Shown piece by piece: positions 31,742 through 64,000 of a DNA stretch of 64,000 nt. Numbering within the stretch: position 1 is the first letter of the stretch; the number at the start of each line of letters is the position of its first letter. Origin of the DNA: Minisyncoccota bacterium (GTDB lineage Bacteria; Patescibacteriota; Minisyncoccia; JAHIHE01; JAGLIN01); the NCBI GenBank assembly GCA_041661265.1, contig JBAZUT010000002.1, positions 140,316-204,315 of the forward strand, written 5' to 3'. The notes beneath the pieces were generated by a model that worked only from the letters and a program-made list of their open reading frames with translations, ran no database searches and had not been told where the DNA came from. Both the position numbers and the translations under genes were made by a program.

Positions 31742-34700
31742 TTATGGAGTTGTCTCGTCCCACTTGAGGGTACTTAGAACGGGTACTGTATTGGAATCAG
31801 TATATATAGGGGAGTTGTTCACAGCTCTTACTCTATAGAATGCAAATCCCGGAAGCGGATCATTATCCATGCATATCCTGTTATCGGAATCAACCGGGAA
31901 ATCCGCGACATTCAGGCATATGACTTCTGCCGAACTGAAATCCGAATTATCATCCCTGTAGACCGTATATACCGGCGGTCCGCCTTTTACAGAATACTCT
32001 GCCGCAGACCAATCCAACCTTACCCTATTCGGAAGATTTTCATAATCAAGCATAAAGTCTCCCGGAGGAGCGATCGGAACATAAACGGGAGATATGATAT
32101 TTGAACTCGTCGTGCCTGCCGCATTCACTGCCCTGATCTGATATTCATAGGTCGTATCCTCCTGGGCTGTCAGATCATTGAATGTAACAAAACCTGTTGG
32201 AGGAGGATCCTCATAATCGGTTCCCGAGACCATCGAATCCAAAGGCGTTGAATAGGCTGCCGTCGCTTTATTGATGAACAGGCCGAACAGGTCATCCATC
32301 TTTTCGCCCATGCCCACATAAGCAAACTCCGAATCACCCTGGAGCCTTCTGAATATCTCATATGAAGTTTCATTCTGCGTATCGCTCCATTTGATCTCAA
32401 CATTACCGCCCGCACTCAAGGTGTAGCTTGCGGAAACAAGAGAAAGGAATGGCGGATAAAAAGGCGGAATATTCAGACAATCGCAAGATGTTGTCTGCAA
32501 GCTGGGATCCGATTCCACCGAATTATCAACGCCCGAGCCCACAGCTTCCACTTTATATACATAATTCTCCACACTGTTTATATTGCCGTCAATATAGGTT
32601 CTGGCCAGATACGGCATATTCTCCCTGATCTTGCTGAAATTTGTTTCGCCTGCCGACACATTCTTTCTCAAAATATTATACGAGAAGGTCTTGCTTTCGT
32701 CATAGGGCGCCCAATTGATCTGCATACGCGATGAAGAACCCGCGCATATCGGCAACACGGTGTTATCGGTATTGCCCGGCAAAGCTCCGCCGCATACATA
32801 TCCGGAATCCCTGCTGATCACGGGTTTTGCGGGAACATCAAAGCACTCCATGGCAATGGCTGTCTTTTCTTCGGAAAATGCGACGCTGCTGCTTCCATGC
32901 GCCTCAATATAATAATCATAGCTGGCGCTGCTTTCAACATTCAGGTCGATATATGAAGTCAAAGTTGTCCCCGGACAATTAATACATGTATATGCCGCAA
33001 ACGGCTCGCTGGTGCGCTTTTTATATATGGTCCAATAGGATGTGTTCGGATCCGGCAGCCACGAAAGCGCTATCTGCGTTCCCGAAACATCACAACCCGG
33101 AGTCAGGATCAGATTCGCCTGAACCGGCGAACAATCCGGCGCAATAATGGAAACTTCATTCGACATAGCGCTCTCATTTCCGATCCCCATCGCCTTCACC
33201 GCATATTTATAGTTTTTATTCGATTCCAGAGGAAGAGAACTTAGTATATTCGGAGAATCAGACTGTCTTTCGGGACCATTGATCAATGTTCCGTCGGAAC
33301 CATTCCCGGAATTGTCATATGCCGCTACTCCCGCTTTTTCATCAAAATGCCAGACACCGGCCAGGCCAAGTTCGTTTTTATAGATAGCATTATATTGCTC
33401 CGCAATTTCTATTCCACTTAAACTTCTTCCGTAGATGCGGACCTCGTCGATCGATCCGTCAAAAAGCTCATGCCACTGCGGTGACCCGCCCTGGCGCGCG
33501 CCGATCGTTACCGGCGCATCGCTCAATATCGTATTGCTTAATGAATTTTCATCGATTGTAACACCAAGAGAGATCCCGTCTTCATATATCCTTACGCCAC
33601 TTGCCAGACTGGAACCGTCATAAGTGATCACGTAATGGTGCCAACCGCCATCATTCAGCATGCTTGGCGATGTAGTGCTCACCGTGATAGCGTTTGAAGA
33701 CCAAGTATTGACCATCATGAAAGATATGGTTCCAGCCCTCACCTGCGAGGTTGGAAAATAGTAATTCGTTATCAGATGCCATCCTCTATACGGACTGTAA
33801 TCCGACGCCTTTGTGATCACTTCCTGAATTCCGGTACTTGATGCATCCGGCTTAAGCCAAGCTGTGATCGAAAATGCTCGATCTCGCTCAAAATCAAAGT
33901 TTGATTCATTCGCGATTGCCGCATAATCATCCGATCCATCAAACTGCAGGCTCCTCGACCCGCCATCGGTTATTGGCGACCTGACGGAAAAATAGACGGA
34001 TTGCAGAGAATCTGAGACATTATTTCGATATAAATTATAAGAATAAGCATTAGCACTTGCCGTCCAGGACAGATCCGCATATGGCACGTTCAGATCGCAA
34101 TAAGTACTGCCGAGAGCCAGAGTAGAAACGTCAGGAACTCCGCAGAACAATGTCGTCACCGACCTCGAGCTCGAAAAGGATGTGAGGGCGGTGGGCCCTA
34201 TTGCTTTTATCCAATAGTAATATGTCCAAAGATCCTGAAGTCCCGCCGAACTGTCCGTCCATGCCCTGGAATTGAATTCAGCAAGATCGGAAGGAATGGT
34301 TTTGTCCAAAGCCTTAACTAGCAATGCCGAACCCATGTTATCGATCGTATTGCGATATATCTCATATTTTTGGGTGCCGGAAGGAAAATCATCCGACCAC
34401 GAGATCATATTATAGGGATCATTTGTACTGCAATTGGAGTAAATTGGGTCAATAACCGGCGTGAAAGGAACGCAATAATTGCCGATGCCGATCAAGGCAA
34501 CATTGGAACCTGCTCCCTCACCTGCGTCATTTTCCGCTTTGACGACATAGGAATAGGCAGTGTTGACCGCTATACCCATATCATCATAGGAATTTGTCGT
34601 TCTGCTCGTCAGATAGGATCCATCTCGATAAATGTTATAAGAAGTGGCGTTTGGAACATTGTCCCACCCGAGAGCCGCATAGGGGTTCGAGCCAGAACAT

Positions 34701-37700
34701 GCAAAAGATGCGTTCAGACTTGCTACCGGCGGCATTGCCTCACAGGAAAAGGTCTCTGTGGCTCCCGCAGAGAAAGAGAGTAAGCCCGTCGGACCGTTTG
34801 CCTTAATCCAATAGAGATATTCGGTTAACGGCAAGAGCGGCCCATTATCCGTCCATGTCAGAGTATTTTTGCCGACTGTCTGCAATAGCGCTGCCGAATC
34901 GATTGAAACGATCCGGACATTATCTATCCAAGCCCTATCGCTTCCGCCGATCGTACTGTCATCTTTGGCATAAACCCAGCGAAAACTGTGCGCTCCTGCC
35001 GAGATAGGCACGATCATTTCCGCGAAAGATGCCATGGACGTTCCGCTTATCCTGTTCCTGTATCCGGTAGCTCTTGTGCACCCATCATTGTCCAGGCAAA
35101 AAAGAAGAAAATCATAACTATCTTCAGAACTGACTTTCCAATGGAACCTTAATGCGGATGGGCTGGAGACCGTGATGTCATAATCAATAAAAGCGGATTG
35201 ACTGTTTCCAATTGCACCACTGGCGGCCGAAGCCGATCCATCGCTTGAGGCCGACGTATCCCTGAACCAATTCGCATCTCCTCCGGTCGTCCATCCGGGA
35301 GGCGTAAAAGTTACGCTTTCAAAATTAGAGATTGAGACGCTGCCGGTGCTTCTATAAATTTCAAAATTATTGGTATTATCGGGCGTTGCATCCGTCCATG
35401 AGACAGTATTCTTCGACTGATCGCTTTCGCAAACCGTTACGATCGGATCAATAGCCGGCACCGACGGCGTGCAATAGTGTCCAGCCGCGATCGAAATGAC
35501 ATTTGAATCCGCCCCTTGTCCGAAAGGGCTTCTGCCTCTGACGGTGTATCCATACGCAGTATTGACATCAATAGTATAATCATCGTGAGTAAGGGTTGTT
35601 ACATTTGTCAAAAATATCCCGTTCCTATATACGTCATAAGAAGTCGCATGTCCGATCGAAAGCCAAGACATATGCGCATACGGGTTCGAAGGGGGCGTTC
35701 CGGAACATTGGAATGAACCTATCAGAGTGTTTGTGGACTCGGGAGGTCCGCAAAAAAGATTCACAATATTCGTAGCATCGGAAAGGGTCGTATAATTCAT
35801 TGGGGCCGGCCCGATAGACTGGACCCAATAGTAATATGTCGCCTCATCTTCCAGCCGGGGACTTGAAGGATTGTCGATAATTGTTCTGGCACCAAAGGCA
35901 GCAGGTTGGGTCGCCTTGTCAATAGTTTTGATCAAAACAGTCCCGGCATCCACAAAATTATTTGTCGTTCCTCTGTATATCTTATATATTGCCGTGTTCG
36001 GATATGTTTCACCGGTCCAACTTATATTATTGGCGGGATTTCCACCCGAACAACCCGCGCCTAAACTGACTACCGGCTTTTGCGGAGTACAATATTTTCC
36101 AAGCGAGATCGATGCGATGCTTGAATCAGAACTCTCCCCTCCCGAATTCTTTGCTCTCACCGTATAGTCATAAAGCGTATTGACAGTGACCGTGGTGTCT
36201 TCATGCGTCAAAACTGTTTCATTCACCAAAAATAATCCATTGCGATAGATATCATATGAAGCCGCGCCGGGAACGGCATTCCAGCTTAGCGACACCCTGG
36301 GAGTCGAAGCAGGCGTACCGGTGCATGAAAAAGCGGCAGTTAATCCCGTAGGGGCAGACAAAACAGCGCAATAAACCGTTGTAACAACACGATTGGCAGA
36401 CTGGCTGCTTGCACTGCTCGGACTGATTGATTTGATATAATACGTGTAATTAGTTGAATCGCTGAGTCCCGCCCCGGCATTATCATCCGTCCATTTTCTT
36501 AGATCCGGATCTATGCTTTGGGCGGCAGTTCTGACCAAAACGCCATTCCGATAGATCTCATAAGTTGAAGTATCAATCGCATACGGCCATGAAATATCCA
36601 CTACCGCTTTGTTCGAACTGCATAGCGGAGACAAGACCAGATTTGATCTTTGAGGCGGACATTCCGGCGTTAAAAATGGAGATATCGTATTTGAACTGGC
36701 GCTGCCGCCGGAACTGAATGCATCCACCCTCCAGCTGTAATTTGTCTTTGAGAGAAGACCGCTTCCCCATGCCGGATCATCGCTGTCCGCTCCGGCAGCG
36801 CTTCCCAATGTCGCATTTCTGCCATAGTTCGAACTATCCGATGCGATCTGCCCGCCTCCTTCATCGAAATACCACAAACCGACCAGATCCGCTTCGTTGG
36901 CATAAACTCCATTCTTGTGCTCCGCCACTTCCGTTGAAGAAAGGGCGCGCCTATAGATCCTTACTTCTCCGACAGAACCATTGAAATAATACGGATTATA
37001 GCTTCTTCCGATCTCAAGGGCTTTTGTCGGATTGCTCAATGTATTGATCGTTCCATTGTATTCGCCTGCACTGGATCCATTCACCCACGCCTCAAGATGA
37101 TTGGTTTTTTTTATTCCCACAATATGCGTCCAGCCCCAGGTTTCATAAAGAGGAAGTGAAACCGCCTTATATCCGGAGCTATCTTTTACTCCGAATGAAT
37201 ATCTGTTACTGGGAGAATATGCCTCTGAAATAAAATATCCGGTCGAACCCCATCCGCCCTTATTGACTATCCCTCTGCCATAAGTGCCGCCATCGGCTTT
37301 TGCCCAAACTTCAACCGTAAAATCATTTGTGGTCATGTCCAGATCGGCGGAAGTGCCTGCATTCACGTAATCATCGGATCCGTCAAAATTCAGAATATTT
37401 CCGTGTCCGACATCGCCAAAGGGCGATATTACGCCATTGATCGTGGCAGGAGAAGACACAGAACGCAAAAGGTCATATGAAGTGGCATTGGCGCTGTTTG
37501 TCCAATCCAATTGCACTTTCGGATATGGGCCTTGGCAGCTTGCACTTGGAGGATCGGTCAGGATGAAGGGTCCGGGAGGCGAGCAATTGCTCGTCGTTAC
37601 CGGCTGATAGACGGAAGATGCCTCCTGGCCGGCATTGTAACCCGCCGCCACAACCTTATATTTATAAGTTGTTGTGATAAGCAAAGGATTCGGATCGATG

Positions 37701-41283: not shown

Positions 41284-41293
41284 CTGGGTTAAT

Positions 41294-43650: not shown

Positions 43651-43705
43651 ATTTATATGATTATTCCGCTTTAAGCGCTATATACTATATTATAATAAAT
43701 TTACG

Positions 43706-44953: not shown

Positions 44954-45024
44954 AACGTTAGGCCGCATGGCGTTCTCGAAAGCGTACGGCGTTCTTTCAA
45001 AACTAAATTTGAGCGGCAAAGCTT

Positions 45025-51858: not shown

Positions 51859-52098
51859 TGCTTTATTTATTTATTTAGCTAATCTTTGCATACTGCATCA
51901 ATTACAACACTTATAGTATAACACATTTCACGCATTATTACACAACAAAATATCGTATCAAAAAATTATCTATTTATCATGTTTCAATGCCCTCAATTTC
52001 CTTTTGCTTATTTCTGTCATTTCCCGCTATTCCTGAATTGCCTTTGTAGGATATGGGATGATTTCGTCTGTTTTCATTTCCAACATTTCATCCTCTCT

Positions 52099-53860: not shown

Positions 53861-53883
53861 GTTTTTTTTTAATATATTAATTT

Positions 53884-56800
53884 CTATGGCGCAGCTTCGT
53901 TCCATTTCGGCCTCTCGCTCATGACATCTATGGGCTGCAGAGTGAATCTTTCGCTCGCATAGCAACTATATACCTGAGCGGAAGAATCGGTTACTTTCAG
54001 GTCCACCGCAAAGGTTCCCTGATCTGCGTAATTGTGGACTACATTATAACCCAAAGCCGGTCCGGGGTCGGAGAAGGTGTCAATGTCATTCGGCGTCCCA
54101 TCTCCAAAGATCCATTCCATTTCTTTTATATAATATCCGGCCGCAACCGAAGTCGGCTCCGCAAGCGGATTTCCGGAAACATCATTAAAAGGATCGAGTG
54201 TCACGTCCATGAATTGCAGGATGTCCGTATCCGGAGAGTATGAAAAATTAGCGACAGGATAAGAATGGTCCGGGGTCGCAATAGGACTATTCGGATCCGA
54301 ACTGTTATAAGGGAACTTCACCCCCGGAGTCACTGCGCTTGCATTATCCTCACTGTCATAAACAGTAACATTCCATGAATATGTAAAATTTCCATAATCT
54401 ATAAACCCGGGACAGAAGCCGTTGATATCATTACCCGTCAAAGTGTTTATGAAATCAAATTGTTTTCCCGTCGAACACACGGCCAGGTCGCTCCTCTCAA
54501 CGTCAACCCGATATGCACTCTGAGACGTTCCTGCCGCGTCATCTTCCACGTCAGTGAAGACCCACGAGATCCTTTCCGCCCACGGATCCTGCCTGCAAGG
54601 ATCGATCGAGGTCGCGTTTGCATTCGTAACGGACGGGTTAAACGTTCCGACGCTGACGCAATAATCAGCTCCGTTGCAAAAACTGATCCAGCCTGTCACG
54701 TCGCCTCCCCACGCCCAGCCGTTGAAATTTCCGCCACTCAGGATAACTTTGTAATTGCCCGAATTAACCGGAATCGTCAGATTATCAATGCCGCCGCAAG
54801 CCACGTCAAGAAACTCATTATTATCCGTATCGCAATCATCGGCCAATATGATGCCATCGCCTCCGCAGCTTACATCAAGTCTCCCGTTATTATCCGTATC
54901 GCAATTATTTATATTTCCTTTCAAATTGATCCACCCGTCCCAGTCACCGGTTTCCCAAGGATTTTTAAGCGCGCCCGAACAGTCTGCACTAAACACCGAA
55001 CAAGCCCTCGCCCAGCCGATAAAATCACCTGCGCCATCAAGACTTGCCTGGCAGGCTCCCGACGGACAGCCGGAAATATCGCCAAAATCAGGATCTCCCG
55101 AAACTCCATAACCGAAAGTTATCCACCCGATATTCTCACTCCATGCATAACCCGACAGAATTCCGCCTGAGTCCAGATTTACTCCATAAGATTTGACTGC
55201 GCCATTGGTCTGGCAGCCTGGAGGCGCGGGAGTTGAACCGACAGGAACCCCTTCGCTGTTTCCTTCATATATCCCATCCTTGTCAACATCGCAATTCTTG
55301 CTGTTGAAGCTTATCCAGCCTGCAGTCGAGCTCCACGCAAAACCCATAACATTTGAATTTTGAGCTTCGCACCCGGGCTTTGAAGGATCCGTCGTAATAT
55401 TCGGTCCGTCCGTTACCGCGCTCGAAAGAACATCCGTCTCATCCCAAACAGTGAGATCCCAATACAAAGTTTTTCCATATGCAGCCGCTCCAAAATCCGC
55501 ATCATAGGTTGTGCTCGATGATAATACAATTCCCGTATTCAAAATATTATTCGTCTTTCCTGCATCATCATACACCCTGATCCGGTATGATTTTTGCGCA
55601 AATTGCGGAGTCGTATTGGATTGATATGTCCAGGAAAGATCATATCTGTTGTCGCTTGTGCAATTATTTATCGGACCCGCAACACTAAGACCGGACACCG
55701 TTGGCGGGACACATTGAAAAACGGTTCCCTGCTGACCATTGTCGCCCCCATTGATTCCCGTACCGCCATTAACATTAAAGCTGCCTCCGTAAGTATTAGA
55801 ATTAGAACAATTCACAATCCTTCCGCCACCGCCGCCGCCATTGCCATTTATATTTCCTCCATTGCCGCCATTTGAAGTGATAAGACCGGAAGCCAAACCG
55901 GTTAGATTATTTGAAATCAAGAAAATCGATCCTCCGGCGCCTCCCCCTCTCGGGCCAACCGCACTTAAACCGGAAGCGTCAATTATTCCGCTGTTGGTAA
56001 GACTATTTGTGATCATTATTTTGATCATTCCGCCGCCAGTGCCACTGGCAGGAGCTCCGGCACCCGCGAAAGCCGAGCCGCCATCGCCTCCGATTCCGCC
56101 ATATCCGCCTCCTCTATTGTTCTGGAAACTACCCGTTTGTCCTCCCGAACCCAGATCATTCGGATTAGTGAGAGATCCATACGTATTGCCTCCGGTGTTT
56201 CCCGAACCGGGTCCTTCGTCGGCAGAATAACCCTTTCCAATCGCATCAATTTTGCCTCCGGCAATTATAGTAAGATTATTAAGATTCAAATCGATATAAT
56301 TAACCTTGGCATTTGTGTTCGCAATATGACTCAGCGTTCCAGCGATGGTTAAATTCCTTAAATTTGGAAAATTCGTCGTAGTTGGCGAGAAAGTATTCAC
56401 GGTAAAGTTGCCGTTAAGCGTCATATCCGTGAAACCCAGGCTTATTGCATTGAGATTCCCGGTATTGGTTCCAATACCGTTTATGTTTATCACATCCGCG
56501 CCATTAACCGTAAACAGACTGTTATTATCCAGCACGCCGACAGATGTAAGATTCGTGACGCCATTTGCGGTAAAAGTTCCATTATTGGTTATACCCCAGA
56601 AAGACCATGCCCCCGTATTTAAAGCTGTGATATTTACACCCGGATTGATCTTGAAATGCCCTCCATTTGTGATCGTGAGATAATCAATGTTCATATTGGC
56701 ACCGACAGGAGTCATTTCCCCGGCCACACCGTTATTTATCAGACTTAAATATCCGTTTGGATTTGCACCATCGTCTTTGTCTTTTGAATAAATAGTTCCC

Positions 56801-59800
56801 GCACCTCCATATACAGCCGAACCGGATGGCGCCCCGCCATAGGCTATCGCCGATCCTAAATAAGATTTTGCATTGTAGCGATATGAGATCCTTCCGCCGC
56901 CGCCGCCGCCATTATTATTTGTATTGCCGCCATTCCCGCCGCTTGCGATCATTGAGCCCGTAGCTGCTCCTCCAAAATTATTCGTATCGACATATATTGT
57001 TCCGCCCGATCCTCCCGCCCTCGTTCCCGTAGCATTGCTTCCCGAGACATTGATCGTACCATTAAGCATGAGAGTGTTCCCGATCGTCAATTTAACCAAT
57101 CCGCCGCCCGTGCCGCCGCCCGCCGGCGCTCCGGCTCCGGCCCAAGCCGAACCTCCATCGCCTCCGATACCTCCGAATCCGCCTCCCCTATTATTCTGGA
57201 AACTTCCTGATTTACCGCCGGAACCCAAGTCATTCGGATCGGTAATCGATCCATATGCATTGCCTCCGGTGTTTCCTGAACCCGCACCCTGATCTGCCGC
57301 GTAACCTTTGCCAGCCGCATCGATCTTTCCTCCTGCATTAACTGTCAGATTATCAAGAGTCAGATCAATATAATTGACGGGAGTATTATTATTTGCAAGA
57401 TGACCCAAAGTTCCGTTCACGGTCATATTTACAAGTGAAGCAAAACTAGTTGTTGTCGGCGAGAAAGTATTGACGATAAGCGTACCGTCAATTGTAAGAT
57501 TGGGAACATTATTAGCTATTAAATTCCCATTATTAGTGACAGTTGCGGTATTGTTTATCGTTAAGTTGTTTATATTCCGAACATCGAAATAGCTGTTATT
57601 ATTAAGAACGCCGGTTACAGTCAGACTCGCCACACCCAATGCCGAGAAATTCCCGTTATTGGTTATGCTCGAGAAAGACCATACGCCGGTGTTGTAAGCG
57701 TCCAAATTAACGCCGGAATTTATGCTGAGATGGGCGCCATTCGCAACCGTTAGAATATCAATCAGCATGCTGTTCTCGAGTGGCGTGATCTCTCCGGAAA
57801 ATCCATTATTATCGAGAGTCAGATAACCGTTCGGGTTCAGGGCGTCTGATTTATTCTTTGAATACACCGTGCCGGCTCCGCCATATGTAGCCGCGCCTGT
57901 TCGCGCTCCGCCAAAAGCAACGGCAGTTCCTGTATATGTTTTTGAATTAAAGTAGTATGCGATCCTTCCGCCTCCGCCTCCGCCATTGTCATTGGATGCG
58001 CCCGCTGACCCGCCATTTGCGATCATCGAACCCGTTGCGGCGCCTGCCAGATTGTTCACATCGACATATATCGATCCGCCCGATCCACCGGCTCTTGTTC
58101 CGGTAGAATTAACTGCCGAAGCATTTATCGAGCCATCCAAGGTCAGAATGTTGCTGATAGTCAATTTTACCGAACCGCCGCCGGCCCCACCGGTCGCAGG
58201 CGCTCCGCAGCATCCCCCGGTACCCGCCCCTCCTTTTCCGCCATAGCCCGCGCCTCTTCTTCCGGCAAATGCCCCTGATTCTCCGCCGGAACCCATTTCA
58301 TTGGGATTAGTGATAGATCCATAAGTATTACCCCCTAAATTCCCCGAACCGGCGCCCTGGTCTGCAGCATATCCCCTGCCGACTGCGTTTAGTACGCCCG
58401 TAGCGGCAATATTTCCGCTGGTCGCAATTATTTCAACCTTGCCATAATTCGTTCCGTCATAAGCTTTGACATAAACCGTCCTGCCGGCGGGTATGCTGAA
58501 ATTATTGATATTGCAATGCGTTCCCGCTATGTCTATTATTCCGGCAGTCGCATTCAAATCCCAAGCATCTCCGTCCGTCGGAGTCCAATTTGCCCCACCA
58601 TGATCGATCCCGGCGCATGGAGCGACGGGAACAGCGCTCGCCTCATCCGATTGAGGACCTTCGCCTATGATATTCGAAGCTGAAACTTTATAGTAATAAG
58701 TAGTGCCATTAACCAGTCCCGTATCCGTGCATGTGAGCACATTTCCAAGGCTTGAACAGCCACCTGCTATTAATAAAGAATAAGAACCATTAGTGGGACT
58801 ACTTCGATACACTTTGTAATTGGTAATAGGTGAACCGCCATCAGCCGGAGCGGTCCAAGACAAAACTACCTGAGCATTCCCAGCTGCAGCCGCTAAGCCA
58901 GTTACTTTATCGGGAGATGATATAACGCAACGGATAGAATTCGCGTCTACTTTAGACCAACTATCGGGGTCTCCTCCTTTTGGAACACCAGAATAAAGAT
59001 ATCTTAGAAATGCATCGCTTGCATTAATCTGAGTCGACGACCAAAGATGCGTATCAGCACCAATATCCCAAAAATTATTAAAAGAATAGCTACCACTCCA
59101 AAGCGCCTCGAATCCCGCTTGACCGCCCTGGTCAAGTTCTGCTTCAGCATCTGAATATCCATAGAAACCTATCACATAATTTCTTAAGATATCGAACTCT
59201 GATTGCTGAGGAATATGCCATCCGGCGGGACAGAGCCCCTGAACAGGCTGAGTTATGAATGCGGAACAGTCGCCTGTCCTGCACGAATTAGGCACCCGTA
59301 AAGCTTCCGTCCACTGATATAAACCGCCATACATATTGCAATTATTATTTCCGGTTGCGATCTGTCCGGCATTTCCATCTGTCATATAGCCATAGCAATA
59401 TTTTTCAACAATTCCATTATCGGTCTGATCTTGATAGGTTACGTTATCATCCAGCTTTCGGCTGATCATCTTTCCCAAAGTAAGGTTTTCTTTTGTCCAG
59501 CATTGATTTCCTATCTTAACGGTGTTATAGATATTGCCTTCGACATCCGCAGCTGAAGGAAACGGCGGACAAGCATTGGTAAGGGCAGCAAGGATCGTCG
59601 TCGGAGCCGATAACATTGAAGCACCGTTTACGGTTCCATCATTGGGAATGACTTCAACCGTGATCACATTTCCGGCGACATAATTCGCGGAAGTTAAAGT
59701 TGAAGCCGTTGCTCCGGCAATATCCACACCTCCCTTTTTCCATTGATAAGCATAGGTTATCGGGTCCCCATCGGCGTCCGTGGCGGAAACAAGCGCCGCC

Positions 59801-62340
59801 AAATTCGGCGTGCTGGCATATGCAGGACTCGGGGTTATGGTTACCAAAGTCATGACAGGAGATGCGTTCGACGAACCTGAACATGCTGCTAAAGGATTGG
59901 ATTCATTGCAATCCTCTCCCACAAAATCGCGAGTGCCATTGTTTATTCCAAGCTGATTCCAGCACGATCCCCCTGTTGACTTGCATGAACAATTTGAAAG
60001 CGTCGCACCGGTCACTCTCAGGGTCCCGCCCGCACCGGTTGCGCTGGTTCCCGGAAGATCAAAAAATCCCGATCCCATCCAGTCTATGAGACCTCCGTTC
60101 TTCGCCTCAAGAACAGTTGAAGAGCAGTTGGGAGCATAATAAGTGTCAAGTCCGGTCATATCGATCGTCCCGCCATTTTGTCCGCAAACTCCGAAATTTT
60201 CGCACGAATTGGCATGTATCCCGCCCTTGAAATAACCCGAACCAGTTATACTGACATTTCCCGCTTTTCTTGAGCTTGATGTTGAGATCAGACTGCCGGA
60301 ACCCTCAACGCCGATGCTTCCGCTGCCGGTCAGATTCACAACGCCTCCGTTCACGCCGGCAATATTCGTGTTCCCGGTTTTGATCAACGACGATCCGCTT
60401 AATACTGTGTCATTTGAAAAAGTTATATTGACATTGCCGCCTGTTTTTGCCGGCCCGCCTGCCGCATTGCTCCCCTCGGTATAGATCTTCAAATTCGATC
60501 CTCCCGGAAAAATCGAGGCCCCACCCGCCCCGGTAACATCCAAATTTCCGCCGTTTCCAGTCAAAGTGTCCGGAACACTGAGGTCAACAATAAGCCCTCC
60601 GTTCGGATAGAAGATATCTCCGCCGGTCATATTGATATTTCTGGCGTTCGTGCTTGATGTTGCTTTTCCGTCTATCAGAACTTCAGTGTTCGCTCCGACA
60701 AACTTGTTTCTGAAATCGATATCCGTTCCCGTCAGGTCAAGATCGCTCGACAGGATTATTCTCAGAGGATTTGGCGTGTTCGCATTGACATCAATACTGA
60801 CGCCTGTATGCGAACCTCCAAGATAGCATGGATTTTGGGTTATCGTGCAATTTCCAGAAACTGGACAGCACTGAGACGCCGTGACCATAAATGAATATTT
60901 TCCCACTGCGGGACTCAAGCTGATATTTCCGGCTCCATCAGTCGCTTCCGATTGATATTCGATCACATCGCCCGGAGTAAGCGGACCGTTTATCGCAAGT
61001 TGATGCAAACCTCCCGTAGCCCAGGTGCTCACAGGCTGAAGGACTCCGTTTATCCAATATCTTATCTTGTGATCAACGATTATGCCTGAATCATCCGAGG
61101 CTGTTGAATAGATCGTCACTTTTTCAGTGGGTTGATCGATATCCGCATAATTGACAACTCCCCCATCAGCAACCTGAACACCCAAAGAATCCGGCCTCCA
61201 TGCAGCTGTCGTCAAAGTTGGATTTATCGTGTCGGGAATCCCGCTGATTATACTGAATTTGCTCGTGCCTTCAGAAGAAACATAAGAATATCCGCTTCTG
61301 AAAGAAAGACCGTAAGGCATATCTAGATTGGCAGAATCCTGTAAGAAATCCGCTATTACTGGATTATTAGCGTTAGAAATATTAACTAACGTTAAAGTAT
61401 CGGAATCATAAGCGGAAACATATGCCATGAAACCGAAAACCTTAACCCCTTTCGCACCATTCAGTCGATTATTGTCTTTAACAGAACCGACTATTACAGG
61501 ATTCGCAGGATCAGAAATGTTCACAATGGTCAATCTGTCTCCTTCAGGTGTCACAGGTCCCGTCCCACGTGATGTCACATAAGCGTAAGGACTGGCAATA
61601 TCAACTCCATATGCTGTATTCAGCTGCTCATCATCCCTCACGGATCCCACATAACTCATTGCAAGGGGATTGGAAATATCTATAATAGTCAATCGATTAC
61701 CTTCGGTCGGACAAGCACCATTTCCTCCTCTCGCCGTAACATATGCAAGACTGCCGACAATTTTCAAATCCCACGCTCCGCATAATTCATTATTTCTCTG
61801 AATTGATGATGCAACGGAAGGGTTTGCCGGATTTGAAATGTTCACTGCCGTTAATCGATTTTGATATCTCGCAGTTACATACGCATAATTTCCCGAAACA
61901 AAAACGCCCGTTGGAGTATCAAGATTTACTCCATCGGCTACAAAACCCGCAATAAATGGCACTGCAGGATTTGTAATATCTACAACACTTAATGTGTCGG
62001 CTGCGCGCGATACAACATATGCGTAATTTCCATATACATAAACACTGTATGCCTCGTTAAGCGTTACCCCATCACAGACCGATCCGACATAACTGGGAGC
62101 TGTCACAGTTGTAATGTCGAGAATTGTAAGACAATCAACAGAAGGTGCGGTCACATAAGCATAATTACCGGAAATTGTCGAATTCCATGCGCCGCTCATA
62201 TTCGGATGAGTGTATGAACCGACTATTCCGAGCGCTGCATCCGCCTTGCCGGCAGATAAACTTGAAATTAAAAATAAAACCAAAAAACACAAAAGGCTCG
62301 TGATCGTTTTTCTCACTTTTGAAATGTTTTTTAATTTCAT
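53884..62340 (-). CDS. giant secreted surface protein (~2818 aa): signal peptide, LVIVD-repeat beta-propeller, Fibrobacter-succinogenes-type paralogous domain, FN3, 3 x ~355-aa Gly/Asn-rich tandem repeats, GW-rich C-terminal region; C-terminal tail ...SERPKWNEAAP
   Basis: Start taken at the internal MKLKNISKVRKTITSLLCFLVLFLISSLSAGKADA; the listed ORF runs to 62430. LVIVD repeats (GNYAYVTA...LTIIDISNPANP). FISUMP-like block (GNQCWTKENL...GGLYQWTEAL...GLCPAGWHIPQQSEFDIL). An FN3 shared with the 1164-aa ORF. Three GKGYAADQGAGSGNTGGN... repeat units. Confidence 0.85.
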   Translation of the reverse strand: MKLKNISKVRKTITSLLCFLVLFLISSLSAGKADAALGIVGSYTHPNMSGAWNSTISGNYAYVTAPSVDCLTILDITTVTAPSYVGSVCDGVTLNEAYSVYVYGNYAYVVSRAADTLSVVDITNPAVPFIAGFVADGVNLDTPTGVFVSGNYAYVTARYQNRLTAVNISNPANPSVASSIQRNNELCGAWDLKIVGSLAYVTARGGNGACPTEGNRLTIIDISNPLAMSYVGSVRDDEQLNTAYGVDIASPYAYVTSRGTGPVTPEGDRLTIVNISDPANPVIVGSVKDNNRLNGAKGVKVFGFMAYVSAYDSDTLTLVNISNANNPVIADFLQDSANLDMPYGLSFRSGYSYVSSEGTSKFSIISGIPDTINPTLTTAAWRPDSLGVQVADGGVVNYADIDQPTEKVTIYSTASDDSGIIVDHKIRYWINGVLQPVSTWATGGLHQLAINGPLTPGDVIEYQSEATDGAGNISLSPAVGKYSFMVTASQCCPVSGNCTITQNPCYLGGSHTGVSIDVNANTPNPLRIILSSDLDLTGTDIDFRNKFVGANTEVLIDGKATSSTNARNINMTGGDIFYPNGGLIVDLSVPDTLTGNGGNLDVTGAGGASIFPGGSNLKIYTEGSNAAGGPAKTGGNVNITFSNDTVLSGSSLIKTGNTNIAGVNGGVVNLTGSGSIGVEGSGSLISTSSSRKAGNVSITGSGYFKGGIHANSCENFGVCGQNGGTIDMTGLDTYYAPNCSSTVLEAKNGGLIDWMGSGFFDLPGTSATGAGGTLRVTGATLSNCSCKSTGGSCWNQLGINNGTRDFVGEDCNESNPLAACSGSSNASPVMTLVTITPSPAYASTPNLAALVSATDADGDPITYAYQWKKGGVDIAGATASTLTSANYVAGNVITVEVIPNDGTVNGASMLSAPTTILAALTNACPPFPSAADVEGNIYNTVKIGNQCWTKENLTLGKMISRKLDDNVTYQDQTDNGIVEKYCYGYMTDGNAGQIATGNNNCNMYGGLYQWTEALRVPNSCRTGDCSAFITQPVQGLCPAGWHIPQQSEFDILRNYVIGFYGYSDAEAELDQGGQAGFEALWSGSYSFNNFWDIGADTHLWSSTQINASDAFLRYLYSGVPKGGDPDSWSKVDANSIRCVISSPDKVTGLAAAAGNAQVVLSWTAPADGGSPITNYKVYRSSPTNGSYSLLIAGGCSSLGNVLTCTDTGLVNGTTYYYKVSASNIIGEGPQSDEASAVPVAPCAGIDHGGANWTPTDGDAWDLNATAGIIDIAGTHCNINNFSIPAGRTVYVKAYDGTNYGKVEIIATSGNIAATGVLNAVGRGYAADQGAGSGNLGGNTYGSITNPNEMGSGGESGAFAGRRGAGYGGKGGAGTGGCCGAPATGGAGGGSVKLTISNILTLDGSINASAVNSTGTRAGGSGGSIYVDVNNLAGAATGSMIANGGSAGASNDNGGGGGGRIAYYFNSKTYTGTAVAFGGARTGAATYGGAGTVYSKNKSDALNPNGYLTLDNNGFSGEITPLENSMLIDILTVANGAHLSINSGVNLDAYNTGVWSFSSITNNGNFSALGVASLTVTGVLNNNSYFDVRNINNLTINNTATVTNNGNLIANNVPNLTIDGTLIVNTFSPTTTSFASLVNMTVNGTLGHLANNNTPVNYIDLTLDNLTVNAGGKIDAAGKGYAADQGAGSGNTGGNAYGSITDPNDLGSGGKSGSFQNNRGGGFGGIGGDGGSAWAGAGAPAGGGTGGGLVKLTIGNTLMLNGTINVSGSNATGTRAGGSGGTIYVDTNNFGGAATGSMIASGGNGGNTNNNGGGGGGRISYRYNAKSYLGSAIAYGGAPSGSAVYGGAGTIYSKDKDDGANPNGYLSLINNGVAGEMTPVGANMNIDYLTITNGGHFKINPGVNITALNTGAWSFWGITNNGTFTANGVTNLTSVGVLDNNSLFTVNGADVININGIGTNTGNLNAISLGFTDMTLNGNFTVNTFSPTTTNFPNLRNLTIAGTLSHIANTNAKVNYIDLNLNNLTIIAGGKIDAIGKGYSADEGPGSGNTGGNTYGSLTNPNDLGSGGQTGSFQNNRGGGYGGIGGDGGSAFAGAGAPASGTGGGMIKIMITNSLTNSGIIDASGLSAVGPRGGGAGGSIFLISNNLTGLASGLITSNGGNGGNINGNGGGGGGRIVNCSNSNTYGGSFNVNGGTGINGGDNGQQGTVFQCVPPTVSGLSVAGPINNCTSDNRYDLSWTYQSNTTPQFAQKSYRIRVYDDAGKTNNILNTGIVLSSSTTYDADFGAAAYGKTLYWDLTVWDETDVLSSAVTDGPNITTDPSKPGCEAQNSNVMGFAWSSTAGWISFNSKNCDVDKDGIYEGNSEGVPVGSTPAPPGCQTNGAVKSYGVNLDSGGILSGYAWSENIGWITFGYGVSGDPDFGDISGCPSGACQASLDGAGDFIGWARACSVFSADCSGALKNPWETGDWDGWINLKGNINNCDTDNNGRLDVSCGGDGIILADDCDTDNNEFLDVACGGIDNLTIPVNSGNYKVILSGGNFNGWAWGGDVTGWISFCNGADYCVSVGTFNPSVTNANATSIDPCRQDPWAERISWVFTDVEDDAAGTSQSAYRVDVERSDLAVCSTGKQFDFINTLTGNDINGFCPGFIDYGNFTYSWNVTVYDSEDNASAVTPGVKFPYNSSDPNSPIATPDHSYPVANFSYSPDTDILQFMDVTLDPFNDVSGNPLAEPTSVAAGYYIKEMEWIFGDGTPNDIDTFSDPGPALGYNVVHNYADQGTFAVDLKVTDSSAQVYSCYASERFTLQPIDVMSERPKWNEAAP
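55700..58400 (-). repeat. intragenic tandem repeat, 3 copies of ~1065 bp (~355 aa), inside the 2818-aa giant gene
   Basis: Nucleotide-level similarity between 56040..56300, 57090..57340 and 58150..58400. The protein units each begin G(K/R)GY(A/S)ADQGAGSGN and contain GGGFGGIGGDGGSA and GGGGGGRI(S/A/V) blocks. Boundaries are approximate. Confidence 0.7.
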
Positions 62341-62363: not shown

Positions 62364-62936
62364 TTAGTAAGACTCTTTTATCTGAACCCCTCCCTCGCCG
62401 ATCGCCGTGATATCCGTAACCTCTCCGCATTTATTGATCATTAATTTATATGCATCATTATCTTTTTGGAATGGGACCATTTTATCCTGTCCATCGATCT
62501 TCAAAGTGAATCCTGCTATATCGCATTTTTCACCTGTCAGAACCCGAACCTTGATCTCCCCAAGATCGTCTTTACATTCTCCTTTTGCGATCACAGCAAG
62601 TCTTCCGCCGCATTCCGTGACGTCGGCGTTCGCCTTTTCCCTGTCGGACTTTTCGCGATATTTCTTTTCGATAACATCATTGAGATCGGCTGTTTCAATC
62701 CCATAATTTCCTCCGCAGTCGTATATCTTGCAGCTTTTCGATTCCCGCTCATTGCATAGGTAATTGAGATCGCAACTCTTATCAGCGCAATTATCTTTCA
62801 ATATGCTGCATTTTGCGAAATCAATGCCCTTTTCACCGGCTTCTCGCTTGGACAATACGACAGCCAGGATCGCTCCCAATATAAAAATCGACGAAATAAA
62901 AACAAACAGGGCAATATCTATATTTTTATTTTTCAT
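62364..62936 (-). CDS. Cys-rich single-pass membrane protein (190 aa)
   Basis: TM helix IALFVFISSIFILGAILAVVL and an ectodomain with ~14 Cys (CSILKDNCADKSCDLNYLCNE...). Confidence 0.5.
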   Translation of the reverse strand: MKNKNIDIALFVFISSIFILGAILAVVLSKREAGEKGIDFAKCSILKDNCADKSCDLNYLCNERESKSCKIYDCGGNYGIETADLNDVIEKKYREKSDREKANADVTECGGRLAVIAKGECKDDLGEIKVRVLTGEKCDIAGFTLKIDGQDKMVPFQKDNDAYKLMINKCGEVTDITAIGEGGVQIKESY

Positions 62937-62958
62937 TTTTATCTCTTTCTATATTGAA

Positions 62959-63291
62959 TTAGAACGTTTTGTCAAACGGATTATCCCTGCTATTCGGAGT
63001 GCTTTTCTTGATCAGATTATCCAGCTTGTCGTTATATTTATATTCCCCGAATTGTTTATTTCCGACAAGGCTCTTTATCCCTTCACCGGACATCATTCTC
63101 TCATATCTCTCATAAGGATTAAGGCTTATAGCGGCATAATCGCCTATATCGCTTTCTCCGACAACCAGCGAAAACGAGTAATAGATTGCGACCGCAAAAA
63201 ACATGATAAACATAAAGACAGAGAATATGGTATCTTTTCTTCCCTTTACTCCATTTAAAAAATTTTCACTGTTTAACGTTTTAAAATTCAT
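62959..63291 (-). CDS. small single-pass membrane protein (110 aa); could be a PilN/PilO-class pilus assembly component
   Basis: TM helix IFSVFMFIMFFAVAIYYSFSLVV. Lies next to the PilO-like gene. Confidence 0.4.
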   Translation of the reverse strand: MNFKTLNSENFLNGVKGRKDTIFSVFMFIMFFAVAIYYSFSLVVGESDIGDYAAISLNPYERYERMMSGEGIKSLVGNKQFGEYKYNDKLDNLIKKSTPNSRDNPFDKTF

Positions 63292-63302
63292 TTCCGAATA
63301 AA

Positions 63303-63929
63303 TTAATAATAATATGAACTCATTACAATACTCGCGCTAACGGTCTTATTCGTATTTTCAGCGACAATCGCGTCCGCCTCTTTTTGCGCAGTTTTATCGC
63401 TCACGGAAATGCTCAAATTGCTTATTCTGAGCATAGGTACATTGCGCTCGATTGAATGGATAAACATCAGGACATCGCCATAGTCTCCACTGGCTTGGAA
63501 TCCATAATTGACCACTTTCGCCTCTCCGCCGCTAAGACTGATCGCGCCCGCATCTGCTTTTGACGCGATCCCCAAACCGCTCAGCTCAACCTTCATAACT
63601 CTCGCCAATATGTCCAAATTGGACAGGTGAAATTCTATCTTATCATCCACAGGAATGAACGTCTTGATCTTTTCAACGTCGCTTTCGCTTACATCTCTCA
63701 CCTTTCTCTCAAAAGATCGCATTTTGGCAAGAGTCTGATTTTTTTTATCAAGATTGGCGCTTCTCAATCCGTCCTCCAGTTCTGCTATCTTCATATTTTT
63801 ATACGCAGGAACAATAAATGAGAAGAAAAGGACCATCCCGAAAATGAATGACGCGATTGAAAACATCATTTTTCCCGACAAAATTCCTTTTGTGCTGCTA
63901 ACAGTCAATATATCAGGTCCTATGTTCAT
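63303..63929 (-). CDS. PilO-like type IV pilus assembly protein (TM + coiled coil + C-terminal domain)
   Basis: N-terminal TM MMFSIASFIFGMVLFFSFIV, then a helical segment (KIAELEDGLRSANLDKKNQTLAKMRSFERKV), then a ~100-aa C-terminal domain. This architecture is typical of PilN/PilO. Confidence 0.45.
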   Translation of the reverse strand: MNIGPDILTVSSTKGILSGKMMFSIASFIFGMVLFFSFIVPAYKNMKIAELEDGLRSANLDKKNQTLAKMRSFERKVRDVSESDVEKIKTFIPVDDKIEFHLSNLDILARVMKVELSGLGIASKADAGAISLSGGEAKVVNYGFQASGDYGDVLMFIHSIERNVPMLRISNLSISVSDKTAQKEADAIVAENTNKTVSASIVMSSYYY

Positions 63930-64000
63930 TTTGTTCTATTGATAATTTTATATGACATTTCTCGATCACGGCTTTTATTTTTGATCATCTTCACCGTTTA
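63926..64000 (-). CDS. 3' end of an upstream minus-strand gene (only the last ~24 codons are in the window)
   Basis: The open frame ends in a TGA that overlaps the ATG of the PilO-like gene (ATGA overlap). Confidence 0.3.

What the first reader, a model, noticed from the sequence alone, without database searches (positions are those of the whole stretch)
31742..64000. 32-kb co-directional supercluster coupling a type IV pilus-like apparatus to three giant multidomain surface proteins
Every ORF from 64000 down to 31742 is on the minus strand, with short or overlapping junctions. In order, the cluster encodes a PilO-like protein, two small TM proteins, a ~2818-aa giant, a small TM protein and a Gly-rich fibre. 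Next come a small TM protein, a 1164-aa giant, a small TM protein, a Gly-rich fibre and a signal-plus-anchor protein. It ends with PilC, three GFTLLE pilins, a pilin-like ORF, a small TM protein and a 2650-aa giant, closed by a strong terminator. No pilus ATPase (PilB/PilT) or prepilin peptidase is in the window. The arrangement suggests the giant FN3/LamG/LVIVD proteins and the fibres are pilus-associated cargo or adhesins. This would fit a cell-attachment (epibiont-style) apparatus. I do not know this exact architecture as a described system.
Basis: partly seen in the sequence, partly recalled or inferred. Interest (0 to 1): 0.85.

Follow-up and report, generated by a model that had tools for sequence, protein, structure and literature searches.

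The report
Pilus operon with tagged giant adhesins
An ultrasmall Paceibacterota (CPR) bacterium encodes three giant surface proteins and two phage-tail-fibre-like proteins inside a type IV pilus gene cluster, and the giants share a conserved eight-residue C-terminal tag that probably docks them onto the pilus tip, suggesting how such bacteria grip other cells.

Summary
From 63929 down to 31742 there are 18 minus-strand genes with short junctions, ending in a strong terminator. PilC, PilO, three pilins with Glu+5 and a PilX-like fourth protein without it are confirmed, as are the LVIVD/FISUMP/FN3/LamG giants. Co-directionality is not special, because the whole window is minus-strand. A PilN-like gene and a prepilin peptidase lie 0-9 kb beyond the window end.

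New findings:
- Giants 1 and 2 share a ~440-aa C-terminal module that is widespread in Patescibacteria, mostly as a stand-alone protein.
- That module and the unrelated LamG giant 3 all end in P/L-K-W-N/D-E-x-x-P. W, E and P are invariant in 48 aligned homologues.
- In 79 species-representative loci, the module gene is flanked by a tail-fibre-like gene in 54% and by pilus genes in 33%. With the strict tag the pilus figure is 59%. The module gene often sits directly upstream of a three-pilin + PilX-like cassette.

Best reading (confidence ~0.45): these are non-homologous analogues of PilY1/PilC/MshQ tip adhesins, docked by C-terminal β-strand addition to the PilX-like minor pilin. The docking itself could not be modelled here. 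I rate this a new variant of a known kind, interest ~0.6.

The parts
63975..64000 (-). 3' end of a PilN-like gene (193 aa, begins MSSINLLPENF), cut by the window edge
   Evidence: Contig extension L001 is identical to the window apart from 1 mismatch in 10.7 kb. Homologues in L006 carry weak Pfam PilN hits. A profile against PDB found nothing.
63303..63929 (-). PilO-like bitopic membrane protein (208 aa)
   Evidence: Profile A3 hits PilO 3jc8 at E = 2e-16 and 2rjz at E = 3e-5. One N-terminal TM segment.
62959..63291 (-). 110-aa bitopic membrane protein that follows PilO wherever the family is found
   Evidence: Family order PilN-PilO-110 is seen in L004 and twice in L006/L007. No Pfam or NCBIfam hit.
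62364..62936 (-). 190-aa bitopic, Cys-rich (5.3% Cys) protein preceding giant 1
   Evidence: A homologue (213 aa) precedes a 2453-aa VWA/LamG/PA14 giant in L006/L007. TM segment at residues 10-28.
53884..62340 (-). Giant 1 (2818 aa as called; the ORF runs to 62430). Contains a Sec signal, LVIVD repeats, FISUMP, fn3 and a C-terminal module.
   Evidence: Pfam and NCBIfam hits. No C-terminal TM segment.
53887..55362 (-). Conserved C-terminal module of giant 1: four G[FW]AWSENIGWISFN repeats, an Ig domain, a PKD domain and the tag
   Evidence: 37% identical to the giant 2 module. Included in alignment A1.
53887..53910 (-). C-terminal tag PKWNEAAP of giant 1
   Evidence: W, E and P invariant.
53519..53905 (-). 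Small bitopic protein of the 'tm148' family, which precedes fibre genes
   Evidence: The family occurs in 18 loci, typically immediately upstream of the fibre gene.
52099..53493 (-). Tail-fibre-like Gly-rich protein (464 aa)
   Evidence: PHROG tail fibre hit at E = 1e-18. 1620 homologues. Conserved mature N-terminus W-T-E-P..PP.GN..PLN.G.
51934..51961 (-). Promoter-like site (TTGATA-16-TG-AATAAT) in the 240-nt gap
   Evidence: This is a consensus match only.
51565..51858 (-). 97-aa bitopic protein preceding giant 2
   Evidence: Homologues in L087 and L093.
47988..51482 (-). Giant 2 (1164 aa): Sec signal, fn3, DUF2341, LamG_3 and the C-terminal module (47991-49319), ending in PKWNEAAP
   Evidence: AF2 model of the module has pLDDT 82.7 with the last ~11 residues unstructured.
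47651..47968 (-). 105-aa bitopic protein of the tm148 family
45025..47622 (-). Tail-fibre-like Gly-rich protein (865 aa), paralogue of the 464-aa fibre
   Evidence: PHROG hit at E = 2.5e-30. The orthologous position in L087 holds a 1278-aa fibre.
43706..44968 (-). ~420-aa protein with a signal peptide and a C-terminal TM anchor; found only in close relatives
   Evidence: No family hit.
43689..43717 (-). Promoter-like site (TTGAAC-17-TATAAT) upstream of pilC
   Evidence: This is a consensus match only.
42442..43650 (-). PilC platform protein (402 aa)
   Evidence: T2SSF at E = 1e-57. Scores 348 bits against GspF, 285 against PilC and 160 against ComGB.
41850..42431 (-). Pilin 1 (193 aa; G|FTLLE), GspH/ComGD-like N-terminus
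41294..41845 (-). Pilin 2 (183 aa; G|FGLLE), PilV-like N-terminus
40726..41307 (-). Pilin 3 (193 aa; G|MTLLE), PilV/ComGF-like N-terminus
40255..40692 (-). PilX/PilK-like fourth minor pilin (145 aa; G|QVALF, no Glu+5), ending in the conserved strand R-A-I-E-L-S-Y
   Evidence: PilX_N hit in 5 of 12 family members. Most conserved of the four pilin-like proteins between relatives, at 81% and 71% identity. The AF2 model is low-confidence.
39713..40213 (-). 166-aa bitopic protein preceding giant 3
   Evidence: The family occurs in 8 loci. It precedes non-module giants in L005 and L076 (L026: adjacent).
31742..39694 (-). Giant 3 (2650 aa): Sec signal, many Ig/FN3-like domains, two LamG_3 domains; ends LKWDETTP (tag at 31745-31768)
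   Evidence: Orthologues are 71-73% identical, and the L093 orthologue ends SSLRWDETVP.
31703..31733 (-). Intrinsic terminator: 14-bp GC-rich stem followed by U6
   Evidence: -26.4 kcal/mol, z = -5.6.

Best explanation
This is a type IVa-like pilus locus of a Ca. Paceibacterota bacterium in which the adhesins are built into the pilus operon.

**Proposed mechanism.**
1. The three giants, and the stand-alone ~440-aa module proteins of relatives, are exported by Sec. They have no membrane anchor of their own.
2. They are held by their invariant extreme C-terminal peptide (P/L-x-W-x-E-x-x-P).
3. I propose that this peptide is donated as a β-strand to the small PilX/PilK-like minor pilin (145 aa, no Glu+5). 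That pilin, with the three Glu+5 pilins, forms the priming complex at the pilus tip on the PilC/PilN/PilO platform.
4. The giants would then be alternative, interchangeable tip adhesins. Their lectin-like (LamG), LVIVD, FISUMP, FN3 and PKD domains would bind another cell's surface.
5. The tail-fibre-like proteins have a conserved N-terminus and a hypervariable distal part. They are proposed to be receptor-binding fibres held by the module's N-terminal G[FW]AWSENIGWISFN repeat domain.

**Shown here.** Gene identities, the tag and its specificity, and the conserved synteny.

**Inferred.** Docking of the tag to the PilX-like pilin, tip location, the fibre-module contact, and the role in attachment.
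For: **Pilus machinery.**
- PilC, PilO, a PilN-like gene, three Glu+5 pilins and a PilX_N-family fourth protein lacking Glu+5 are all present.
- A prepilin peptidase lies about 8 kb upstream.

**The tag.**
- W, E and P are invariant in 48 aligned homologues.
- The tag ends 70 of the 120 best homologues.
- In 86 loci it occurs on 26 of 84 module proteins and on 2 of 13 other giants. It occurs on 0 of 736 other ORFs of at least 150 aa, 0 of 61 fibres and 0 of 65 pilins.
- It sits on two unrelated protein backgrounds: the module proteins and the LamG giant 3 type.
- The AF2 model leaves the last ~11 residues as a free tail.
- None of the giants has a C-terminal TM segment.

**Synteny.**
- The module gene lies directly upstream of pilin-pilin-pilin-PilX-like in L008, L010, L012, L017, L027, L031, L034, L068, L080 and L086. 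Giant 3 lies directly after that cassette in the window, L093 and L094.
- Module proteins with the strict tag are T4P-linked in 13 of 22 loci, against 13 of 58 for the others (Fisher p = 0.003).
- The PilX-like protein is the best-conserved pilin between relatives (81% identity, against 56-66% for the others).

**Precedent (PMC13533445).**
- The last ~10 residues of PilC/PilY1 complete the β-sheet of the PilK-family minor pilin, which lacks Glu+5.
- The non-PilY1 protein MshQ, encoded just downstream of mshDOP, is predicted to do the same.

**No sorting enzyme.** No sortase- or exosortase-like family is among the recurrent neighbours.
Against: - No direct test of docking was possible.
- The module has no PilY1 propeller.
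- Two thirds of module loci show no pilus gene within 10 kb, and fibre linkage is stronger than pilus linkage.
- Three tagged proteins share one PilX-like gene in the window.
- No major pilin, PilB, PilT or PilM lies within the window plus 10 kb upstream.
- 13 of 120 homologues carry a 22-27-aa amphipathic tail after the motif, which the strand-addition model does not predict.
- Giant 1 follows PilN-PilO-110-190 rather than the minor pilins.
Confidence: 0.45

Rival explanations
1. The tag is a cell-envelope retention or sorting signal unrelated to the pilus. The giants, module proteins and fibres form a cell-surface coat anchored to the wall, to an S-layer or to one of the small bitopic proteins. 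They are co-transcribed with pilus genes only because both serve attachment.
For: - About two thirds of module loci have no pilus gene within 10 kb, and fibre linkage (54%) exceeds pilus linkage (33%).
- Each adhesin or fibre gene is preceded by a small bitopic membrane protein that could act as an anchor.
- 13 of 120 homologues have the motif followed by an amphipathic hydrophobic tail, reminiscent of tripartite sorting signals.
- Giant 1 is adjacent to PilN/PilO-like membrane proteins, not to pilins.
Against: - Most members end exactly at the motif, with no TM helix or basic cluster (70 of 120).
- No sortase, exosortase, rhombosortase or other peptidase family recurs nearby.
- Strict-tag proteins are enriched five-fold next to pilus genes (p = 0.003).
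- The module gene is repeatedly inserted between pilC/pilins and the minor-pilin cassette.
Confidence: 0.25
2. The locus encodes a T2SS-like pseudopilus, not an adhesive pilus. PilC plus four pseudopilin-like proteins would form a short piston that pushes the Sec-exported giants and fibres through the peptidoglycan or surface layer. The tag would be the recognition signal for the pseudopilus tip.
For: - The best NCBIfam match of PilC is GspF, at 348 bits.
- The pilins match GspH, GspI, GspJ and ComG-type N-termini.
- No major pilin is present in this locus.
- Giant genes sit next to T2SS-like genes in Omnitrophota (bioRxiv 10.1101/2023.11.21.568195).
Against: - GspF is below its cut-off of 424 bits. 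No GspE, GspL, GspM, GspC or GspD is present.
- PilN/PilO-like genes are a T4aP feature.
- Related loci carry small pilins after pilC (possibly major pilins) and one or two T2SSE ATPases in the same operons.
- CPR pili have been seen and shown to work in Saccharibacteria (PMC11623550).
Confidence: 0.12
3. The adjacency has no functional coupling. Surface-protein genes simply accumulate next to pilus genes in small, co-directional CPR genomes.
For: The whole window is co-directional. Housekeeping genes (NusA, RNase Y, trigger factor, ClpP) also recur in the same loci.
Against: - The same internal order recurs across distant lineages: Paceibacteria, Nealsonbacteria, Kuenenbacteria, Spechtbacterales and others.
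- All 236 labelled neighbours (pilus, fibre and small-membrane-protein families) are on the same strand as the module gene.
- The tag correlates with pilus linkage.
- Junctions are 4-56 nt.
Confidence: 0.1

Closest known systems
PilY1/PilC tip adhesins with the FimU-PilVWX (PilHIJK) minor pilins of Pseudomonas, Neisseria, Acinetobacter and Myxococcus (PMC13533445; PMC7541494)
   Same: - A large Sec-exported adhesin is encoded beside a syntenic set of minor pilins, the last of which lacks Glu+5.
- The extreme C-terminal ~10 residues are the functional anchor.
- Several alternative adhesins can serve one machine (PilC1 and PilC2 in Neisseria).
   Different: - There is no PilY1/PilC β-propeller. 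Instead there is a repeat domain plus Ig and PKD domains, or LamG/FN3 arrays.
- The tag sequence is different and near-invariant.
- The cell envelope is monoderm-like and there is no PilQ.
- Tail-fibre-like partner genes are present, and a small bitopic protein precedes each adhesin gene.
- Docking is not demonstrated.
MshQ of the Vibrio cholerae MSHA pilus (mshDOPQ)
   Same: It is a large non-PilY1 protein encoded immediately downstream of the PilIJK homologues. Its C-terminus is predicted to add a β-strand to the PilK homologue. Giant 3 occupies the equivalent position.
   Different: No sequence homology was tested or detected. Giant 3 is about twice as long, and a 166-aa membrane protein gene intervenes.
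Saccharibacteria (TM7x) T4P-1/T4P-2 with lectin-like PilX1/PilX2 (PMC11623550)
   Same: These are Patescibacteria type IV pili used for host binding. The adhesive lectin or β-propeller modules are associated with the minor-pilin set and lack a PilD-type signal.
   Different: In TM7x the accessory domains are fused to the PilX-like protein itself. Here the PilX-like protein is minimal (145 aa), and the adhesive domains sit on separate Sec-exported proteins carrying a C-terminal tag.
Modular pilins PilB/PilC of Streptococcus sanguinis (PMC8179133)
   Same: This is a monoderm T4P that displays vWA or lectin (ConA-like) modules for adhesion.
   Different: In S. sanguinis the modules are grafted in cis onto true pilins with class III signal peptides.
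Giant genes next to T2SS-like genes in Omnitrophota (bioRxiv 10.1101/2023.11.21.568195)
   Same: Ultrasmall, host-dependent bacteria carry very large adhesion-domain proteins encoded near type IV filament genes.
   Different: The phylum and the proteins differ (many TM regions, SecA-like domains, over 30,000 aa). No shared C-terminal tag or module has been reported.
Phage tail fibres (PHROG 9942 and 18345; Peptidase_S74-type fibres)
   Same: The G-N-V-G-I-G-T..P..K-L-x-V repeat fibres have a conserved N-terminal part and a variable distal part.
   Different: No other phage genes are nearby. The module family is absent from IMG/VR. The fibres here have a signal peptide, and the window copies have no S74 chaperone domain.

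Membership tests
Type IVa pilus machinery | Polytopic platform protein with two T2SSF domains (PilC) | tested here: met
   PF00482 at E = 1e-57 with two stretches. Scores 285 bits against PilC and 348 bits against GspF, both below the equivalog cut-offs.
Type IVa pilus machinery | PilN/PilO alignment proteins | tested here: met
   The PilO profile hits 3jc8 at E = 2e-16. PilN rests only on the INLLP N-terminus, weak Pfam hits in homologues and gene position; its profile found no PDB match.
Type IVa pilus machinery | Pilins with a class III signal (G-1, Glu+5) and a prepilin peptidase | tested here: met
   Three pilins match N_methyl and have Glu+5. An A24 peptidase lies about 8 kb upstream on the same contig.
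Type IVa pilus machinery | Extension ATPase PilB (plus PilT, PilM) and a major pilin | tested here: not met
   None is present in the window or in the 10 kb upstream. T2SSE ATPases do occur in 16 related module loci.
PilY1/PilC tip adhesin family | C-terminal PilY1/PilC β-propeller domain | tested here: not met
PilY1/PilC tip adhesin family | Gene adjacent to the minor-pilin (HIJK) cassette; Sec rather than class III signal | tested here: met
   Giant 3 follows the cassette, and module genes precede it in 10 related loci. N-termini are Sec-type with no G-x-x-x-x-E motif.
PilY1/PilC tip adhesin family | Extreme C-terminal peptide adds a β-strand to the PilK-family pilin | not testable with these tools
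   A conserved, unstructured C-terminal peptide exists.
PilX/PilK-family minor pilin (for the 145-aa protein) | Pilin-like N-terminal helix lacking Glu+5; PilX_N domain; last gene of the minor-pilin set | tested here: met
   It reads G|QVALF. PilX_N matches 5 of 12 family members, best E = 1.4e-5, although the window copy itself is below threshold. The gene position is conserved. The structural test was inconclusive.
Competence (ComG) pseudopilus | ComGA-ComGB-ComGC-GG operon with ComGB-type platform and no PilN/O | tested here: not met
   ComGB scores 160 bits against a cut-off of 240, which is lower than the GspF and PilC scores. PilN/PilO-like genes are present. No ATPase gene is adjacent.
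Type II secretion system | GspD, E, F, L, M and C plus GspG-K | tested here: not met
   There are only GspF-like (348 bits, below the 424 cut-off) and pseudopilin-like N-terminal hits. A GspM hit at E = 0.013 falls on the PilO-like protein.
Sortase/exosortase-type C-terminal sorting signals | Motif plus TM helix plus basic cluster, with a cognate sorting enzyme encoded nearby | tested here: not met
   70 of 120 homologues end at the motif, and 13 of 120 have an amphipathic tail without a basic cluster. No sorting-enzyme family is among the recurrent neighbours.
Phage tail fibre (for the two Gly-rich proteins) | Sequence similarity to tail-fibre families; phage context | tested here: inconclusive
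   PHROG tail-fibre hits at E = 1e-18 and 2.5e-30. There is no phage context in the window, and the partner module is absent from viral contigs.
   GH85_C, RGI_lyase and CbhB hits cover β-sandwich accessory modules only. CbhB scores 97 bits against a cut-off of 1950.

The most novel reading that the evidence does not exclude
Patescibacteria may use a portable 'tag-and-dock' system. Under this reading, an invariant C-terminal peptide (P-x-W-x-E-x-x-P), shared by non-homologous giant adhesins and by a ~440-aa adaptor module, mounts interchangeable adhesins on the type IV pilus tip. Through the adaptor's repeat domain, hypervariable phage-tail-fibre-like receptor-binding proteins would be mounted as well. 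The pilus would then act as a retractable probe carrying phage-style host-recognition fibres that set the host range of episymbionts.
Probability: 0.3. Interest if true: 0.8.

Novelty: new variant of a known kind. Interest (0 to 1): 0.62.

Why it matters
Patescibacteria make up a large share of bacterial diversity and mostly live attached to other cells. Outside a few cultured Saccharibacteria, how they recognise and hold a host is unknown.

If the tagged giants and the tail-fibre-like proteins ride on the pilus tip, three things follow:
1. Host specificity could be read from genomes, through the variable fibre and adhesin domains.
2. The recently described β-strand-addition rule for PilY1/PilC would extend to an unrelated protein family in a monoderm-like lineage.
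3. It would yield a simple sequence marker, the C-terminal W-x-E-x-x-P, for finding pilus-tip cargo in metagenomes.

If the tag is instead a new envelope-retention signal, that would itself be a new sorting system in CPR bacteria.

Tried and rejected
1. **Fusion model.** A fusion of the PilX-like protein, a linker and the C-terminal tag was built with paired rows from 8 loci (A2).
3. **Full-library HMM search with the module profile.** The counts (82,112 hits) are swamped by generic multi-PKD proteins and cannot be used as a family size.
4. **PilN-like profile against PDB.** Nothing was found.
5. **PilC-anchored metagenome scan.** Only 6 loci were returned. They were useful for one close relative (L087) and for showing canonical pilB-pilT-pilC-pilA in others, but too few for statistics.
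6. **Viral contigs.** There are no relatives of the module, so a phage origin of the module is rejected.
7. **Com system, T2SS, and GH or S-layer identity.** All rejected; see the membership tests.
8. **Sorting enzyme.** Unbiased clustering of 1163 neighbour ORFs found none. It did recover PilB/T-type ATPases, prepilin peptidase, a kinase/regulator pair and housekeeping genes.
9. **TafC hit on giants 2 and 3.** This is a LamG-domain match to a haloarchaeal Tat-fimbria subunit and is far below cut-off. It is not pursued.
10. **Terminator scan.** The scan tool missed the terminator after giant 3. It was confirmed by reading the sequence and by folding.
11. **Literature.** Seven searches of the ten allowed found T4P and large adhesins in Parcubacteria and Saccharibacteria. 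None described this module, the tag or the fibre linkage.

Full report
**1. What is in the sequence**

The ORF map shows 18 consecutive minus-strand genes from 63929 to 31742. Junctions run from -22 to +56 nt. The exceptions are a 240-nt gap (fibre-464 to the 97-aa gene) and an 82-nt gap.

Every product has an N-terminal hydrophobic segment. PilC has three such segments and the ~420-aa protein has an extra C-terminal one. None of the giants has a C-terminal anchor.

The cluster ends 9 nt after the giant-3 stop in a 14-bp GC-rich hairpin plus U6, at -26.4 kcal/mol with z = -5.6. This faces a convergent plus-strand tRNA-Met/Met/Asp group.

Essentially all protein-coding genes in the 64-kb window are minus-strand, with a monotonic GC skew. 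Co-directionality therefore carries no weight. The tight spacing does. Consensus promoter-like sites upstream of pilC and in the 240-nt gap hint at up to three transcription units; this is weak evidence.

**2. Identities**

- PilC is certain (T2SSF, E = 1e-57).
- The 208-aa protein is PilO. A profile of its homologues hits M. xanthus PilO at E = 2e-16.
- The window end cuts a PilN-like gene (MSSINLLP...).
- The same contig, recovered by exact protein look-up, carries a prepilin peptidase about 8 kb upstream. It shows no PilB, PilT or PilM within 10 kb.
- Three pilins have G-1 and Glu+5, with GspH/ComGD-, PilV- and PilV/ComGF-like N-termini.
- The fourth protein (145 aa) reads G|QVALF, so it lacks Glu+5. 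Its family matches PilX_N in 5 of 12 members. The set therefore has the canonical H-I-J-K order of minor pilins. This classification rests on order and N-termini, not on solved folds.
- The giants carry LVIVD, FISUMP, fn3 and PKD (giant 1); fn3, DUF2341 and LamG_3 (giant 2); and two LamG_3 plus many Ig/FN3-like domains (giant 3). None has a catalytic or S-layer domain.
- The two Gly-rich proteins are paralogues and resemble phage tail fibres (PHROG 9942, E = 1e-18 and 2.5e-30).
- An exact database match names the organism as Candidatus Paceibacterota, on a 249,682-bp contig.

**3. A conserved module and a conserved tag**

Giants 1 and 2 share their last ~440-500 residues at 37% identity. This module has 1367 word-indexed homologues. 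Most are 400-500-aa stand-alone Patescibacteria proteins annotated only as 'PKD domain-containing' or hypothetical.

Giant 3 lacks the module but ends LKWDETTP. Its orthologue ends SSLRWDETVP, and a 2094-aa LamG giant in L005 ends LKWKEVIPR.

Across 86 loci the strict tag occurs on 26 of 84 module proteins and 2 of 13 other giants. It occurs on none of 736 other ORFs of at least 150 aa, 61 fibres or 65 pilins. Among the 120 best homologues, 70 end in the strict tag, 13 add a 22-27-aa amphipathic tail, and 15 end in a shorter aromatic-x-Glu-hydrophobic form.

**4. Synteny elsewhere**

A scan of one genome per GTDB species returned at least 507 module loci. The best 80 come almost entirely from Patescibacteria MAGs; three records are labelled Elusimicrobiota, Pirellulales and Gammaproteobacteria. 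I annotated them with HMMs iterated from the window's proteins.

Of the 79 loci with a module gene:
- 43 have a tail-fibre-like gene.
- 26 have T4P genes (PilC, pilins, PilN/O, PilX-like, T2SSE, A24).
- 51 have one or the other.

Among the 48 loci of at least 12 kb, the counts are 33, 18 and 38. All 236 labelled neighbours (pilus, fibre and small-membrane-protein families) are on the same strand as the module gene.

The recurring order is PilN-PilO-(110 aa)-PilC-pilin(s)-small TM protein-fibre-module-pilin-pilin-pilin-PilX-like. The module gene lies directly upstream of the minor-pilin cassette in ten loci.

Strict-tag modules are T4P-linked in 13 of 22 loci, against 13 of 58 for the rest (odds ratio 5, p = 0.003).

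Three close relatives (L087, L093, L094) keep the window's order. Identities to the window are 83-90% for PilC, 71-81% for the PilX-like protein, 71-73% for giant 3, and 51-66% for the other pilins. The fibre is only locally similar, and differs in length (865 aa against 1278 aa).

Unbiased clustering of 1163 neighbour ORFs added PilB/T-type ATPases (16 loci), prepilin peptidase (10 loci) and a kinase/regulator pair. It found no sortase-like enzyme. The module is absent from IMG/VR.

**5. Mechanism**

The giants are Sec-exported and have no anchor, so the tag is the only conserved candidate for holding them.

Ellison et al. (PNAS 2026, PMC13533445) showed that the last ~10 residues of PilC/PilY1 complete the β-sheet of the PilK-family minor pilin, the one lacking Glu+5. 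This licenses pilus assembly and holds the adhesin at the tip. They also predict that MshQ, a non-PilY1 protein encoded just after mshDOP, does the same.

Four observations fit this scheme: the gene positions here, the Glu+5-less PilX-like protein, its higher conservation, and the free invariant C-terminal peptide.

I therefore propose that the giants and module proteins are non-homologous analogues of PilY1/MshQ. I also propose that the module's repeat domain may hold the tail-fibre-like proteins. The fibres have a strongly conserved mature N-terminus (W-[TS]-E-P..PP.GN..P-[LI]-N.G..Q.K.G.L) and a variable remainder.

Docking, tip location and the fibre contact are all inferences.

**6. Rivals**

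- An envelope-retention signal independent of the pilus remains quite possible (0.25). Most module loci lack pilus genes nearby, some homologues have an amphipathic tail after the motif, and small bitopic proteins precede every adhesin gene.
- A T2SS-like export piston is less likely (0.12).
- Mere adjacency is less likely still (0.10).

**7. Comparison and novelty**

T4P as a core feature of Parcubacteria and 'unique large adhesin-like proteins' were both noted in 2015 (PMC4508563). CPR-enriched pilus families were described in 2019 (PMC6744442). Saccharibacteria pili with lectin-like PilX1/PilX2 have been studied genetically (PMC11623550; PMC10633639).

The searches found no paper describing this module, the shared C-terminal tag, or its linkage to tail-fibre-like genes and minor-pilin cassettes.

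The locus fails the defining PilY1 propeller test, so it is not a PilY1 family member. It may nevertheless work like one. I rate it a new variant of a known kind, with interest 0.62.

Noticed in passing
window 30732-31349 (+) and 31642-31666: Two tRNA-Met genes and a tRNA-Asp gene on the plus strand converge on giant 3. An AT-rich 11-bp palindrome plus T-run probably terminates them. The 70-aa ORF at 30682-30894 (-) overlaps a tRNA and is spurious.
   Followed up: partly
window 1-64000: Almost all coding is on the minus strand, with a monotonically falling cumulative GC skew. The giants have GC 0.47-0.49, against 0.39-0.44 for their neighbours.
   Followed up: no
L001 2119-2412; L006 14116-14475: Genes for 23S_rRNA_IVP (PF05635) proteins sit next to pilD in L001. 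In L006 one is inserted between pilC and the pilins.
   Followed up: no
L001 4786-6537: A 583-aa secreted protein has a Cys-rich region, an FN3-like domain and a C-terminal T4SS_pilin (PF18895) membrane domain. It lies between ligA and gatC, upstream of the cluster.
   Followed up: no
window 45025-47622 versus L087 2923-6759 and L093 1-939: The tail-fibre-like protein is hypervariable between close relatives. It is 865 aa here against 1278 aa in L087, and only ~26% locally identical to the L093 copy. PilC is 83-90% and giant 3 is 71-73% identical in the same comparison.
   Followed up: partly
L006/L007 (16734-21272 in L006) and window 53884-64000: A second PilN'-PilO'-111 aa-213 aa cassette directly precedes a 2453-aa VWA/LamG/PA14 giant. 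This mirrors PilN-PilO-110-190-giant 1 in the window. It is unexplained why PilN/PilO-like genes pair with giants.
   Followed up: partly
L056 14951-16639: A 562-aa PilX-like ORF ends ...VEHWEESY. It may be a cis fusion of a PilX-like pilin, an extension and a tag-like C-terminus. It is a single case and the start codon is uncertain.
   Followed up: no
L039 6343-7708 and 7-8 other module/T4P loci: A HisKA/HATPase_c kinase and a response regulator recur next to pilus and module genes.
   Followed up: no
P0027, P0028, P0034, P0043, P0047, P0069, P0084, P0089, P0094, P0110, P0116, P0117: These module homologues carry a 22-27-aa amphipathic, Phe-rich tail after W-x-E-[IV]-x-P (for example PPTSFLEKFLASFFQILKLFV). 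Its role is unknown.
   Followed up: partly
window 6830-8146 (-): A 438-aa ORF among housekeeping genes has no Pfam match.
   Followed up: no
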